Shown piece after piece: positions 8,675 through 9,681 of a DNA stretch of 32,000 bases; position 1 is the first letter of the stretch, and every line of letters begins with the position of its first letter. Source of the DNA: a virus; IMG/VR virus record IMGVR_UViG_3300033407_000001, positions 117,276 through 149,275 of that record; one strand, given 5' to 3'. Made by a program: the position numbers and the translations under genes. The notes beneath the pieces were generated by a model. The model was given only the letters and a program-made list of their open reading frames with translations, searched no databases and had not been told where the DNA came from.

Positions 8675-8700
8675 GAAAGGCCCCCGTGAAGGAGCCTTTC
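8675..8700 (-). other. stable hairpin closing the tRNA-like array
   Basis: GAAAGGCCCC..GGAGCCUUUC forms 10 bp with one mismatch and a 6-nt loop. There is no U-run after it on either strand. Confidence 0.4.
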
Positions 8701-8852
8701 TAAAACATAACCACTACCGAGTGAGAAGCCTGGAGTTGCGTTTTCGCTTGTTTATCATACAAGTGCTCGACCACTGAGCCACATTTCCATTCGGAAACGA
8801 TCGGATTCGAACCGACGTATTGCGTGTAAGGCAGATCTAAAGGTAGTGATTA
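8700..8852 (-). ncRNA. circularly permuted tRNA-type gene (Ile GAU body) flanked by the conserved module
   Basis: - strand order:
- leader helix 8842-8852
- 25-nt ..UUACACGCAAUAC
- T arm GUCGG-UUCGAAU-CCGAU, acceptor 3' strand CGUUUCC and G73 (8792-8816)
- AAU linker
- GGAAAUG, D arm and CUUGU-AUGAUAA-ACAAG (8747-8788)
- 28-nt connector
- trailer helix 8708-8718 (11 bp with the leader)
- UGUUUU. Confidence 0.7.
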
Positions 8853-9014
8853 AAAAAATATTGACGAAAACCGAGTTGAGAATCTGAAGTGCGTTTTAAC
8901 AGATTAATAGTCTGGTGGCAGCCACCTGCCAGCATTCCCCATATGAAAGTGGGGGGAAAGGCCGGAGTCGAACCGACAATTTGCTTGTAAGATTTTCTTG
9001 ATGGTTTTCGTCAA
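8853..9014 (-). ncRNA. circularly permuted tRNA-type gene (anticodon loop CUAUUAA, identity unclear) flanked by the conserved module
   Basis: - strand order:
- leader helix 9003-9014
- 25-nt connector
- T arm, CUUUCCC, C and CCA (8950-8977)
- 9-nt linker
- GGGGAAUG.. with a 5-6 bp D stem and the anticodon arm (8899-8940)
- 26-nt connector
- trailer helix 8861-8872 (12/12 bp with the leader)
- U-run. Confidence 0.65.
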
Positions 9015-9216
9015 AAAACCGTTATCGCCGACATGCGGTAGAAATCAAGAAGAGACTAGACCCGAGTGATAAATCTGGAATTGCTTTTATACATGTTTCC
9101 ATAACGTGCGCCTTTACCATTTGGCCACTCCTTCAAAAGTTGGTGAAGGAGGCAGGACTCGAACCTGCAGATTGCGTGTAAGATCTTTCGGATGGATCTA
9201 GTCTCGTCTTGATTCC
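9015..9216 (-). ncRNA. circularly permuted tRNA-type gene (Ser-like D arm, GGA-type loop) flanked by the conserved module
   Basis: - strand order:
- leader helix 9194-9216
- 25-nt connector
- GCAGG-UUCGAGU-CCUGC, CUCCUUC, A and CCA (9141-9168)
- ACUUUU linker
- perfectly complementary GAAGGAG, then GCC..GGC D arm and anticodon arm (9092-9134)
- 28-nt connector
- trailer helix 9041-9063 (23 positions, 1 mismatch). Confidence 0.7.
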
Positions 9217-9239
9217 TAAGCCATCAAGCAGGCTTTGCA

Positions 9240-9382
9240 AAAAATTGCGAGAGCGACCGAGTTGAGGTGCTGAGTTTTTGGATGCAATAACTGGATTTGA
9301 ACCAGTTACCATCGGCGTTTAGGGCCGAAGCTCTACCAATTGAGCTATATTGCTTGTAAGCATTCTCTGGTGGTCACTCTCG
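9240..9382 (-). ncRNA. intact tRNA bracketed by the same leader/trailer module
   Basis: The leader CGAGAGUGACC (9372-9382) pairs with the trailer GGUCGCUCUCG (9248-9258). The conserved connectors (..AUGCUUACA and AAAACUCAGCACCUCAACUC) flank the tRNA at 9279-9354. A U6 run follows. Confidence 0.6.
9279..9354 (-). tRNA. class I tRNA with atypical anticodon loop CCUAAAC (UAA with C33)
   Basis: Acceptor AGCAAUA/UAUUGCA (A1-A72 mismatch), GCUC..GAGC D arm, UCGGC/GCCGA anticodon stem, ACUGG-UUCAAAU-CCAGU T arm. CCA is encoded. Confidence 0.7.
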
Positions 9383-9522
9383 TGGCGCCGGACTCTGGAG
9401 TCGAACCAGAATTGCGTGTAGACATACAATTGATGCCTTCCGTAAAAGGCGAGTACTGATGTCGGATACAGTTGTTTATCCAATTAACAGTTGGTTGAGG
9501 AACCGATCCTCTGTAGTCCGGC
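9383..9522 (-). tRNA. tRNA-Asn(GUU)-type gene with a 68-nt structured insertion between the anticodon stem and T stem
   Basis: Acceptor GCCGGAC/GUCCGGC with G and CCA. Anticodon arm ACCAA-CUGUUAA-UUGGA. The insertion at 9411-9478 carries the module with a closed hairpin GCCUU-UUACGG-AAGGC. The D region is irregular, with 4 nt between the acceptor and D stem. Confidence 0.65.
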
Positions 9523-9550
9523 AAAAAATTATTCAATTATCAAAAAGCAA

Positions 9551-9681
9551 TGGAGGCGGATCTTGGAGTCGAACCAAGCATGCTTGTAGACATTCAACTG
9601 ATGCAGCCCAAGGGCCGCGAGTGTCGGTGTCGGATATTTGCTTTCTCAGAATGAAAGTGACCCCCACGGGTCATATCCGCC
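9551..9681 (-). tRNA. tRNA-Arg(UCU)-type gene with a 62-nt structured insertion between the anticodon stem and T stem
   Basis: Acceptor GGCGGAU/AUCCGCC with U and CCA. D arm GACC..GGUC. Anticodon arm CUUUC-AUUCUGA-GAAAG. The insertion at 9579-9640 carries the module with the hairpin GCGGCCC/GGGCUGC. Confidence 0.7.

What the first reader, a model, noticed from the sequence alone, without database searches (positions are those of the whole stretch)
8700..9681. Six tRNA-type genes share one co-varying RNA module; three are circularly permuted (T arm, acceptor 3' strand, CCA, linker, acceptor 5' strand, D arm, anticodon arm)
**Seen directly on the - strand.** Six consecutive genes carry the same two-stranded module.
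- Strand a always follows the anticodon stem (or the CCA in one case): ..AAAA(C)GCA.. then 4-5 nt of P2, ..CUC, (A)ACUC, then P1.
- Strand b always precedes the T stem (or nucleotide 1): P1', A(U/C)CA.., P2', then UACA(A/C)GCAAU.
- P1 has no conserved sequence but stays complementary: 11, 12, 23 (1 mismatch) and 11 bp, or a closed 5-7 bp hairpin.
- P2 co-varies: AGGC/GCCU, AGAU/AUCU twice, AGCA/UGCU, GACAU/AUGUC and GACA/UGUC.
- Connector lengths are fixed at 24-25 nt for five of the six strand b copies (17 nt in the intact-tRNA unit) and at 20-28 nt for strand a.

**Three topologies occur.**
1. At 9551-9681 (Arg UCU body) and 9383-9522 (Asn GUU body), the module is a closed 62 or 68 nt insertion in the variable-loop position.
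2. At 9015-9216, 8853-9014 and 8700-8852, the T arm and acceptor 3' strand (two of three with encoded CCA) are followed after 3-9 nt by the complementary acceptor 5' strand. The pairs are CUCCUUC/GAAGGAG (7/7), CUUUCCC/GGGAAUG (6/7) and CGUUUCC/GGAAAUG (7/7 with one G-U). The D arm and a complete anticodon arm come next. The module strands sit at the outer ends, where leader pairs with trailer, and a U-run follows.
3. At 9240-9382, an intact 76-nt tRNA with CCA is bracketed by the module.

**Context.** Canonical isoacceptors also occur elsewhere in the window: Arg UCU, Asn GUU twice, Ile GAU and Ser GGA. The scaffolded copies are therefore redundant for decoding.

**Established knowledge.**
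- Permuted tRNA genes are known from Cyanidioschyzon merolae and a few algae and archaea, where a BHB motif plus splicing endonuclease and ligase resolve them.
- Bacterial and phage Y RNAs (YrlA type) are ends-paired stems attached to a tRNA-like domain, and they partner with Ro60/Rsr.

**Inference.** Either this is a new phage processing or splicing signal that yields mature tRNAs through excision, ligation or two-piece tRNAs, or these are Y-RNA-like tRNA mimics for the TROVE-vWA protein at 12572-14461. The module is not a canonical BHB and is far too small for a group I intron.
Basis: partly seen in the sequence, partly recalled or inferred. Interest (0 to 1): 0.95.

Follow-up and report, generated by a model that had tools for sequence, protein, structure and literature searches.

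The report
Y-RNA-like handle on phage tRNAs
Six tRNA-shaped RNAs in a jumbo-phage genome all carry one conserved two-helix "handle" in three wirings, just downstream of a Ro60-like protein gene, so they are most likely a new branch of the known Ro60/Y-RNA tRNA-mimic system rather than a new kind of tRNA splicing.

Summary
On the minus strand of 8709-9681 lie six units sharing one module: helix P1, a 5x5-nt internal loop (5' A-Y-Y-N-N, 3' N-N-C-U-C), an ~8-bp helix P2, then the junction strand UACANGCA.

The module recurs in related jumbo-phage contigs, always on the strand of one protein gene. Covariation is strong: 94% of cells paired against 58% after shuffling, and 16 of 16 pairs show compensatory changes. 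No Rfam family matches it.

The upstream 629-aa protein has no Pfam TROVE hit, but its predicted structure best matches Ro60/TROVE over more than 500 columns.

In relatives the acceptor, T and D arms are kept, but anticodon loops are degenerate (U33 in 13 of 34, against 410 of 423 control tRNAs). Stand-alone and non-tRNA cargo versions also exist. This argues against splicing into decoding tRNAs.

Permuted tRNA mimics partnered with Ro60 (YrlA) are already known, also in phages. This is a new variant: a different handle motif, a complete anticodon arm, several grafting topologies, arrays, and a linked JAB / Ubl-like / E1-like cassette. Ro60 binding is inferred, not shown.

The parts
9551..9681 (-). 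U1: complete tRNA body (anticodon UCU, 7-bp acceptor, encoded CCA) with the closed module as a 62-nt insert in the variable-loop position (9579-9640)
   Evidence: (R2 55.2 bits)
9383..9522 (-). U2: complete tRNA body (anticodon GUU, encoded CCA) with the closed module as a 68-nt insert (9411-9478)
   Evidence: (R2 48.3 bits)
9248..9382 (-). U3: the module brackets a 76-nt tRNA-like RNA (9279-9354, anticodon UAA, C33, A1.A72 mismatch, CCA). 5' strand 9355-9382, 3' strand 9248-9279. The module's GCAA is also the start of the acceptor stem.
   Evidence: (R1 44.8 bits)
9041..9216 (-). U4: permuted unit. 5' strand 9171-9216 (23-bp P1). T arm, acceptor 3' strand, A-CCA, linker, acceptor 5' strand, D arm and anticodon arm (GGA) at 9091-9170. 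3' strand 9041-9090.
   Evidence: (YrlA positions 30-81, 17 bits)
8861..9014 (-). U5: permuted unit. 5' strand 8979-9014 (12-bp P1), tRNA-like body 8899-8978 (CCA in the acceptor loop, anticodon AUU), 3' strand 8861-8898, followed by a U-run.
8709..8851 (-). U6: permuted unit. 5' strand 8819-8851, tRNA-like body 8747-8818 (acceptor closed by GAAU, no CCA, anticodon GAU), 3' strand 8709-8746.
   Evidence: (YrlA positions 30-81, 22 bits)
8675..8700 (-). G+C-rich hairpin (GAAAGGCUCC UUCA CGGGGGCCUUUC) just after U6; possible end of the array transcript
   Evidence: not called by the terminator scan
12572..14461 (-). 629-aa Ro60-like protein: N-terminal beta domain, helical repeat region, vWA domain with conserved MIDAS D-x-S-x-S. 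Inferred partner of the module.
9785..12568 (-). Conserved cassette between the Ro60-like gene and the RNA array. Members: 311-aa unknown protein (11633-12568), JAB (10676-11047), 89-aa protein ending in PFGK (10360-10629, Ubl candidate), and E1/ThiF-like protein (9785-10360). The HNH gene at 11044-11742 is a sporadic insertion.

Best explanation
The six units are non-coding, Y-RNA-like tRNA mimics.

**What the module is.** It consists of P1, an internal loop (A-Y-Y-N-N opposite N-N-C-U-C), an ~8-bp P2, and the junction strand UACANGCA. It works as a portable protein-docking handle. Its most likely partner is the divergent Ro60-like ring protein encoded about 3 kb upstream on the same strand.

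**What the tRNA body is.** It is the variable "effector" end, as in bacterial YrlA. It presents an intact tRNA elbow and acceptor arm to tRNA-binding factors.

**How the handle is attached.** It can sit (i) as a giant arm in the variable-loop position of an otherwise normal, CCA-ended tRNA. It can form (ii) the paired 5' and 3' ends of a circularly permuted tRNA. It can act (iii) as a paired leader and trailer around a tRNA. In relatives it also occurs (iv) on its own or with non-tRNA hairpins.

**Shown.** The conserved, covarying structure; the topologies; the synteny with the Ro60-like gene; and the relaxed anticodon loops in relatives.

**Inferred.**
- The Ro60-like protein binds the handle.
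- The RNAs act as tethers, gates or decoys rather than decoders.
- The 7-bp acceptor hairpins of U4 and U5 may be opened by RNase P to give two-piece, CCA-ended molecules, as in M. smegmatis YrlA.
For: **Structure is real.**
- 38 open modules form 94.4% standard pairs, against 58.4% in shuffles (0 of 500 reach the observed value) and 31-40% when partners are slid. All 16 pairs carry double changes.
- 20 permuted units chosen without any P1 or P2 criterion show 14.6 of 16 pairs against 10.7 after shuffling. CUC precedes P1 in 19 of 20.
- RNAalifold, run on a plain MAFFT alignment of 34 fixed-window extracts, recovers P1 and P2. All 12 pairs are compensatory.

**The module is specific.** Model R2 hits only the array in the window. 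It hits nothing in about 70 control viral loci.

**Link to the Ro60-like gene.**
- The top nine PDB fold matches of the 629-aa protein are Ro60/TROVE over 510-560 columns, with E-values from 3e-7 to 2e-5.
- Modules lie on that gene's strand in at least 20 of 30 loci.
- They usually start 70-250 nt after the last cassette gene.
- In a contig whose Ro60-like protein is only 26% identical, four module units follow the gene directly. That locus has no cassette and no tRNAs within 11 kb.

**Resemblance to Y RNA.**
- The Rfam YrlA model aligns to the T arm, closed acceptor and D arm of U4 and U6.
- A conserved YUAC follows the upper stem on the 5' strand, as YUAY does in YrlA (PMC4201824).
- The 3' loop strand reads ACUC-G or ACUU-G, like AcUuG in the YrlA consensus.

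**Probably not decoders.**
- Among the 34 closed-type units (32 in relatives plus U1 and U2), acceptor stems are 7/7 in 33. U33 is present in only 13, and CCA is encoded in 8.
- By contrast, 410 of 423 ordinary tRNAs in the same loci have U33.
- Orthologues that share an acceptor stem have unrelated anticodon loops.
Against: - No binding data exist.
- The defining Ro-binding motif of bacterial Y RNAs (GNCGAAN0-1G, or CGAA) is absent from five of six units.
- Rfam YrlA scores are 22 and 17 bits against a gathering score of 69.
- The protein is Ro60-like only by a moderate structural match (TM 0.39-0.50). No TROVE sequence hit was found.
- In most loci four other conserved genes lie between the Ro60-like gene and the RNAs. 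Any of their products could be the true partner.
- In this window five of six anticodon loops are canonical, and U1 and U2 have normal CCA ends. Decoding or charging in this phage is therefore not excluded.
- Some loci with the protein show no module within the 10-kb flank.
Confidence: 0.6

Rival explanations
1. Processing or splicing signal. The module is an intron-like or leader/trailer element that is cut out, or that holds two halves together. U1-U6 would then mature into functional decoding tRNAs, as spliced, re-ligated permuted, or two-piece tRNAs.
For: - Five of six window units have canonical 7-nt anticodon loops. U1-U5 encode CCA.
- Acceptor stems are perfect 7-bp helices in nearly all relatives.
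- A PNKP-like phosphatase is encoded at 1551-2348.
- M. smegmatis YrlA shows that RNase P can open such acceptor hairpins (PMC4201824).
Against: - In relatives U33 is lost in 21 of 34 closed units. Four of them have 8- or 9-nt anticodon loops.
- Orthologues keep the acceptor stem but not the anticodon.
- Permuted relatives mostly have tetraloop-closed acceptors without CCA.
- Stand-alone modules and non-tRNA cargo exist.
- No RNA ligase, splicing endonuclease or BHB-like motif is conserved with the array. The PNKP-like gene is not syntenic in any of the 30 loci.
- No ribozyme or intron family matched, even at E<=10.
Confidence: 0.1
2. The handle is recognised by another product of the conserved cassette, not by the Ro60-like protein. 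Candidates are the 311-aa protein or the JAB / Ubl-like / E1-like trio. The function could be an RNA modification or tagging pathway acting on tRNA-like substrates.
For: - The array starts right after the E1-like gene in most loci, and the cassette is conserved in 26-27 of 30 loci.
- E1/ThiF-type enzymes and Ubl sulfur carriers act on tRNAs in known pathways (TtuB/TtuC, Urm1/Uba4, TcdA; established knowledge).
- The best, non-significant fold hits of the 311-aa protein are dsRNA-binding domains.
Against: - In the L186/L260 contig the module array follows a divergent Ro60-like gene directly, with no cassette within 11 kb.
- The 311-aa protein has no significant match to any fold or family.
- There is no evidence that the 89-aa protein is a beta-grasp Ubl beyond its size, position and PFGK end.
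Confidence: 0.15
3. Anti-defence tRNAs. The units are chargeable replacement tRNAs or decoys for host tRNA-targeting nucleases. The handle recruits a protective or repair factor.
For: - The array sits in a 37-tRNA cluster.
- The tRNA bodies have many different identities.
- Several subfamilies keep the anticodon triplet but change position 33: N-GUU-AA with U, A or G at 33, and A-CAU-AA.
- A Ro60-like protein next to the tRNA genes of phage Bas63 was reported to counter the Ppl defence system (bioRxiv 10.1101/2024.10.10.617714).
Against: - There are no data on cleavage, charging or defence systems for this phage.
- Many relatives have anticodon loops unlike any tRNA.
- This reading overlaps with the best explanation, in which the Y RNA acts as a tether or gate. 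It is a more specific version of it rather than a true alternative.
Confidence: 0.1

Closest known systems
YrlA (Rfam RF02553), the bacterial and phage Y RNAs bound by Rsr/Ro60 (Chen et al. 2014, PMC4201824; Wang et al. 2018, bioRxiv 10.1101/312249)
   Same: - Encoded within a few kb of a Ro60-type gene, on the same strand.
- The 5' and 3' ends pair into a long stem with an internal loop.
- The effector end is a circularly permuted tRNA mimic, in the order T arm, closed acceptor stem, D arm.
- A conserved YUAY follows the upper stem on the 5' strand.
- Several copies occur per locus.
- One member with a 7-bp acceptor stem is cut by RNase P and receives CCA.
   Different: - There is no GNCGAAN0-1G motif.
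- The stem leaves the tRNA from the variable-loop position, not in place of the anticodon stem, so a complete anticodon arm is present.
- The same handle also occurs as a closed insert in normal CCA-ended tRNAs, as a bracket around tRNAs, and alone.
- Scores are 17-22 bits against a gathering score of 69.
- The partner protein has no detectable TROVE sequence signature.
Metazoan Y RNAs (e.g. human Y1) and D. radiodurans Yrn1/Yrn2
   Same: - The architecture is lower stem, asymmetric internal loop, upper stem of about 8 bp, then a variable module.
- The 3' loop strand is N-C-A-C-U-(U/C) followed by G. Human Y1 reads GCACUUG here (recalled, not from a tool). Unit 4 of L186 reads GCACUU-G.
   Different: - The 5' strand lacks GGUCCGA.
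- No Rfam Y_RNA match appears even at E<=10.
- The resemblance is by eye and was not tested statistically.
Thermus phage phiLo Ro60 with Yrl1/Yrl2 (PMC12135203); Ro60-like gp130 of phage Bas63 upstream of its tRNA genes (bioRxiv 10.1101/2024.10.10.617714)
   Same: - A phage-encoded Ro60-type protein has adjacent small structured RNAs.
- The phiLo protein (PDB 9kop, 9l5y) is among the best fold matches of the window protein.
- The Bas63 authors proposed that some genes annotated as tRNAs are Y RNAs.
   Different: - The phiLo Yrl RNAs carry a CGAA motif and were not described as tRNA-like.
- The Bas63 idea was not followed up at the RNA level.
- Neither paper describes this module or its topologies.
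Circularly permuted and split tRNA genes (Cyanidioschyzon merolae, some algae and archaea; Nanoarchaeum split tRNAs)
   Same: The 3' half of the gene precedes the 5' half. Complementary flanking sequences bring the ends together.
   Different: - Those genes mature through BHB motifs, a splicing endonuclease and a ligase into ordinary decoding tRNAs with conserved anticodons.
- Here no such enzymes are linked.
- The break lies in the variable loop, with a conserved protein-type handle.
- Anticodon loops drift in relatives.
Long variable arm of class II tRNAs (Leu, Ser, Tyr, Sec)
   Same: In U1 and U2 an extra helix leaves the tRNA core between the anticodon stem and the T stem.
   Different: - The arm is 62-68 nt rather than about 10-20 nt.
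- It has two helices, a conserved internal loop and 10-nt single-stranded linkers.
- It occurs on bodies with Arg- and Asn-type anticodons.

Membership tests
YrlA / bacterial Y RNA (RF02553) | Encoded within about 4 kb of a Ro60 (TROVE) gene, on the same strand | tested here: met
   The array at 8709-9681 lies 2.9 kb downstream of the Ro60-like gene (12572-14461), on the same strand. The same arrangement is seen in at least 20 of 30 related loci. The protein is Ro60-like by fold only.
YrlA / bacterial Y RNA (RF02553) | 5' and 3' ends pair into a long stem that carries an internal loop | tested here: met
   Met for U3-U6: P1 of 11-23 bp, a 5x5 loop, and P2 of about 8 bp. In U1 and U2 the same stem is closed by a loop instead.
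YrlA / bacterial Y RNA (RF02553) | tRNA-like domain in the order T arm, closed acceptor-like stem, D arm | tested here: met
   Met for U4-U6. The Rfam YrlA model aligns at positions 30-81, and MFE folds agree. Not met for U1-U3, which have normal tRNA order.
YrlA / bacterial Y RNA (RF02553) | GNCGAAN0-1G motif near the 5' end (proposed Rsr contact) | tested here: not met
   The 5' loop strands read AUCAA, ACCAG, AUCCG, UUUAG and AUCAG/AUCAA. Only U4 (AUCCGAAAG) comes near the motif.
YrlA / bacterial Y RNA (RF02553) | Reaches the Rfam gathering score | tested here: not met
   Best scores are 22.0, 17.4 and 14.9 bits against a gathering score of 69. There is no hit at gathering level.
YrlA / bacterial Y RNA (RF02553) | No anticodon loop; the Ro-binding stem continues from the anticodon-stem position | tested here: not met
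   All six units have a complete anticodon stem-loop. The handle leaves from the variable-loop position or from the acceptor end.
YrlA / bacterial Y RNA (RF02553) | Bound by Rsr/Ro60 in vivo | not testable with these tools
   Needs RIP, CLIP or EMSA.
Ro60 / TROVE protein family (for the 629-aa protein) | TROVE domain detectable by sequence (Pfam PF05731) | tested here: not met
   Pfam reports only VWA_2 or VWA_CoxE for the protein and for its close and distant homologues. A profile search against PDB sequences gives Ro60 at E 7e-4 over the vWA part and the TROVE protein 9kop at E 0.06.
Ro60 / TROVE protein family (for the 629-aa protein) | Helical-repeat ring plus C-terminal vWA domain with MIDAS, as in solved Ro60 structures | tested here: met
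   The AF2 model has pLDDT 87. The nine best Foldseek hits are Ro60/TROVE entries over 510-560 columns, with TM normalised to target of 0.39-0.50. D424, S426 and S428 are invariant. The TM-scores are only moderate.
Permuted tRNA genes of the C. merolae type | Matures into an ordinary decoding tRNA (anticodon loop under decoding constraint) | tested here: inconclusive
   U4-U6 have canonical loops. Only about 8 of 22 permuted relatives do, and close relatives differ within the loop.
Permuted tRNA genes of the C. merolae type | BHB motif at the junction, with a splicing endonuclease and ligase | not tested
   No BHB search was run. No endonuclease or ligase gene is conserved with the array.
Self-cleaving ribozymes / group I introns | Match to a curated ribozyme or intron model | tested here: not met
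   There is no such Rfam match in 8500-9900 even at E<=10.

The most novel reading that the evidence does not exclude
The module is a portable docking handle. The phage grafts it onto any tRNA body, including chargeable CCA-ended tRNAs (U1, U2) and permuted bodies that RNase P could open (U4, U5). Specific tRNA-binding enzymes, or the ribosome, would then be coupled to a Ro60-like ring and its linked JAB / Ubl-like / E1-like machinery. This would be a programmable RNA-tether set used for takeover or counter-defence. The different topologies would be a new example of natural RNA domain shuffling.
Probability: 0.2. Interest if true: 0.85.

Novelty: new variant of a known kind. Interest (0 to 1): 0.66.

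Why it matters
- **A large unrecognised Y RNA branch.** Y RNAs and Ro60 have been known for 40 years, yet what the tRNA-like end of bacterial Y RNAs binds is still open. This branch comes from huge phages, and the protein family has more than 1,500 homologues in metagenomes.
- **A natural experiment in attachment.** One handle is joined to whole tRNAs in at least four ways, next to stand-alone copies. That separates the handle from the cargo and makes both parts directly testable.
- **A missed annotation class.** tRNA finders and Rfam overlook these RNAs. GenBank records carry them unannotated.
- **An unexplored gene link.** A Ubl-like/E1-like/JAB cassette is tied to a Ro60-type protein.

Tried and rejected
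- **Rfam.** Gathering and E<=10 searches gave only tRNA and weak partial YrlA hits.
- **Sequence searches of the 629-aa protein.** Pfam, NCBIfam, phmmer against PDB and PHROGs gave only vWA.
- **Model R1** (module only, with the cargo collapsed). It found U3 but missed U4-U6, because their span exceeds the model's window. A Python descriptor and a second model were used instead.
- **Two IMG/VR pattern scans** (TTACAMGCAA...GGTTCGA). Most hits were ordinary tRNA genes, many apparently Val-UAC anticodon arms. Only 14 of 229 loci held modules. The reverse association, from module to Ro60-like gene, is therefore only weakly sampled.
- **Relatives of the L186 protein.** None were found in IMG/VR.
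- **The 311-aa cassette protein.** It gave no family, no PDB sequence hit and no significant fold match.
- **Consensus promoter and terminator scan of 8400-10000.** Nothing above shuffle expectation.
- **Guessing the Bas63 accession.** The guess was wrong. FelixO1 was used instead.
- **Group I intron and known ribozymes.** Rejected on size and the lack of any match.
- **Recent duplication of the phage's own isoacceptors.** Rejected. The U1-U3 bodies are only about 65-69% identical to any window tRNA.
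Full report
**1. What is in the sequence**

Read on the minus strand, 8709-9681 holds six consecutive units.

- U1 (9551-9681) and U2 (9383-9522) are complete cloverleaves. Each has a 7-bp acceptor stem, a discriminator and encoded CCA. They carry 62- and 68-nt inserts between the anticodon stem and the T stem.
- U3 (9248-9382) is a 76-nt tRNA-like RNA. It is the only unit ARAGORN calls (Leu-UAA, with C33). 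Its leader and trailer pair over 11 bp.
- U4 (9041-9216), U5 (8861-9014) and U6 (8709-8851) run in this order: T arm, acceptor 3' strand, linker (A-CCA-ACUUUU, C-CCA-CUUUCAUAU or GAAU), acceptor 5' strand, D arm, anticodon arm. Their outer ends pair over 23, 12 and about 11 bp.

All six share two strands. The 5' strand reads P1', about 5 nt starting with A, P2', then UACA(A/C)GCA(A)U. The 3' strand reads an A-rich linker, P2, N-N-C-U-C, then P1.

Minimum-free-energy folds reproduce these helices and the tRNA arms, with z-scores from -1.9 to -6.4. Four corrections apply:
- P2 is an ~8-bp helix, interrupted in the window's own copies.
- U5 has anticodon AUU.
- U3 has C33.
- ARAGORN finds no canonical Ser-GGA tRNA elsewhere in the window.

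**2. Is it more than chance, and is it conserved?**

No Rfam family explains the module. The window resembles no deposited phage at the DNA level.

The 629-aa protein encoded upstream has homologues on 30 IMG/VR contigs, mostly of 30-500 kb. In these loci the UACANGCA anchor, together with complementary P1 and P2, recurs. It is always on the strand of the protein gene.

To limit circularity, sets were chosen without the criteria being tested:
- 20 permuted units were picked only by T arm, acceptor hairpin and anticodon stem. They show 14.6 of 16 P1+P2 pairs, against 10.7 for shuffled 5' strands. Sixteen of 20 beat all 100 shuffles, and CUC precedes P1 in 19 of 20.
- 34 closed units were picked without any P2 criterion. 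They show 6.3 of 8 P2 pairs against 4.4.
- On a gapless alignment of 38 open modules, 94.4% of cells are standard pairs. Shuffles give 58.4% (0 of 500 reach the observed value) and slid partners give 31-40%. All 16 pairs have changes on both sides.
- RNAalifold, run on a plain MAFFT alignment of fixed 72-nt extracts, recovers both helices. Compensatory changes occur at 12 of 12 pairs.
- The covariance model built from that alignment hits only the array in the 32-kb window. U1 scores 55 bits and U2 scores 48 bits.
- In about 1 Mb of other viral loci, the same model hits only loci that carry the protein cassette or other modules.

The module is a real, conserved, structured RNA element.

**3. 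The protein neighbour**

By sequence the 629-aa protein shows only a vWA domain. This holds for Pfam, NCBIfam, phmmer against PDB, and more than 1,500 homologues and distant representatives.

A profile of 41 homologues weakly reaches Ro60 and a phage TROVE protein. The AlphaFold2 model has pLDDT 87. Its nine best PDB matches are Xenopus and human Ro60 and the Ro60 of Thermus phage phiLo. These matches span 510-560 columns with E-values from 3e-7 to 2e-5. Only lower down do isolated vWA domains appear. The MIDAS residues are invariant.

The protein is therefore a divergent Ro60-like protein with an extra N-terminal beta domain.

**4. Synteny**

tblastn shows a cassette conserved in order and strand in 26-27 of 30 loci:
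- the Ro60-like gene,
- a 311-aa protein of unknown fold,
- a JAB protein,
- an 89-aa protein ending in PFGK,
- a short E1/ThiF-like protein,
- then the RNA array, usually 70-250 nt after the E1-like stop. In the window this gap is 104 nt.

HNH genes are sporadic inserts.

One contig is especially informative (L186/L260). Its Ro60-like protein is only 26% identical, and four module units follow the gene directly. There is no cassette and no tRNA gene within 11 kb. Two of those units carry permuted tRNA-like bodies, one carries only a D-arm-like hairpin, and one carries three unrelated hairpins. The 3' loop strand there reads ACUU-G.

**5. What the cargo tells us**

- Of 34 closed-type units (32 in relatives plus U1 and U2), acceptor stems are 7/7 in 33, and T arms are intact.
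- Only 10 of these 34 anticodon loops are canonical. Four have 8 or 9 nt, U33 is present in 13, and CCA is encoded in 8.
- In the same loci, 410 of 423 ordinary tRNAs have U33 and 419 have a purine at position 37.
- Units that share the acceptor stem GGCGGAU or GCCGGAU have unrelated anticodon loops.
- Some subfamilies keep a triplet (GUU, CAU) but have A or G at position 33.
- Permuted relatives have covarying 7-bp acceptor hairpins. Most are closed by 2-6-nt loops. CCA occurs in only a few, namely U4, U5, L017 and L026.
- Bracketed relatives re-use the module's GCAA as the start of the acceptor stem.
- Stand-alone modules exist, such as L004 17319-17392 and L024 16565-16639.

The constant element is therefore the handle plus the tRNA elbow and acceptor arm, not a decoding anticodon.

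**6. Interpretation**

This is the modular logic of Y RNAs: a conserved protein-binding stem plus a variable effector module.

Bacterial YrlA RNAs are encoded next to Ro60 on the same strand. They mimic tRNA, and they are described as circularly permuted tRNAs with closed acceptor stems. The M. smegmatis RNA, with its 7-bp stem, is cut by RNase P and receives CCA (PMC4201824; bioRxiv 10.1101/312249).

Phage Ro60 / Y-like RNA pairs are known from mycobacteriophages, CcrColossus, Bacillus phage G and Thermus phage phiLo (PMC12135203). A preprint proposed that some tRNA genes next to the Ro60-like gp130 of phage Bas63 are Y RNAs, and that gp130 counters a defence system.

I conclude, with confidence of about 0.6, that U1-U6 are Y-RNA-like partners of the Ro60-like protein.

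The steps that are inferred rather than shown are:
- binding of the handle by that protein,
- the tether, gate or decoy role,
- any RNase P opening of U4 and U5.

**7. How it differs from known Y RNAs**

- The GNCGAA/CGAA motif is absent.
- The YrlA model scores 22 bits against a gathering score of 69.
- The handle leaves the tRNA from the variable-loop position, so a full anticodon arm remains.
- The same handle is also inserted into normal CCA-ended tRNAs, wrapped around tRNAs, and used alone.
- Up to six or more copies form arrays inside large tRNA clusters.
- A JAB / Ubl-like / E1-like cassette is linked.

I found no paper in the held library that describes this. The one GenBank relative carries an unannotated copy. 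I therefore rate it a new variant of a known kind.

**8. Rivals**

- **Splicing or permuted-gene maturation into decoders.** This is weakened by the degenerate anticodon loops, the stand-alone and non-tRNA versions, and the lack of linked ligase or endonuclease genes. It is not excluded for this phage, where five of six loops are canonical.
- **A different cassette protein as the partner.** This is possible, but the cassette-free L186 locus speaks against it.
- **An anti-defence decoy or replacement role.** This is compatible with the Y-RNA reading and remains speculative.

Noticed in passing
window 9785-12568 (-): A gene cassette lies between the Ro60-like gene and the RNA array. It comprises a 311-aa protein with no family or fold match, a JAB protein, an 89-aa protein ending in PFGK (Ubl candidate) and a 191-aa E1/ThiF-like protein. 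It is conserved in order in 26-27 of 30 related loci.
   Followed up: partly
window 16260-16337 (-): ARAGORN calls a tRNA with a four-base anticodon (ctcg), meaning an 8-nt anticodon loop. Rfam scores it as a tRNA at 47 bits. It may be a frameshift-suppressor-type tRNA.
   Followed up: no
window 7520-8098 (-): A 192-aa protein has an RF-1 (GGQ) domain and a fragment of the PCRF domain. It looks like a truncated release factor or an ArfB-like peptidyl-tRNA hydrolase. It lies next to the RNA array and is not conserved in the 30 related loci.
   Followed up: no
window 1551-2348 (-): A 265-aa metallophosphatase is related to the phosphatase domain of bacterial Pnkp and to ApaH. It is not syntenic with the array in related loci.
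   Followed up: no
window 9009-9026 (-): The trailer of U4 (GGUUUU) can pair with the 5' strand of U5's P1 (AAAACC). This forms an alternative hairpin followed by nothing U-rich, so folding of neighbouring units may compete.
   Followed up: no
L186 2298-2882 (= L260, IMG/VR contig 3300049215_000686): This is a minimal locus. A Ro60-like gene (26% identity) is directly followed by four module units. Their cargo is two permuted tRNA-like bodies, one single D-arm-like hairpin and one non-tRNA three-hairpin domain. The 3' loop strand reads ACUU-G.
   Followed up: yes
L262 2918-3042 (-) = GenBank KX853510.1 175217-175341: An unannotated bracket-type module (R1 39 bits) sits in Virus Rctr197k. This is the only deposited phage record with a homologue of the Ro60-like protein, and there the gene is flagged only as a misc_feature.
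   Followed up: partly
L265 about 24581-24706 (Salmonella phage FelixO1, NC_005282): A permuted tRNA-like element lies in an unannotated gap of the tRNA array. It reads AGACCGUU-UACAGCAAAAC..., T arm, 7-bp closed acceptor, D arm, ...AACGGUCU. It is downstream of ORF42, annotated as an RNA-binding protein (DUF2828 + DUF7788). Rfam YrlA does not match it at E<=1. It could serve as a culturable model.
   Followed up: partly
related loci, table: Several closed-type subfamilies keep an anticodon triplet and A37-A38 but replace U33. Examples are C-G-GUU-AA, U-A-GUU-AA and N-A-CAU-AA. Recognition of the anticodon, for instance by a synthetase, might matter while decoding does not.
   Followed up: partly
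window 15359-15442 and 15440-15515 (-): Two tRNA-Leu calls overlap by three bases. The window holds 37 tRNA calls in all, about two thirds with encoded CCA.
   Followed up: no
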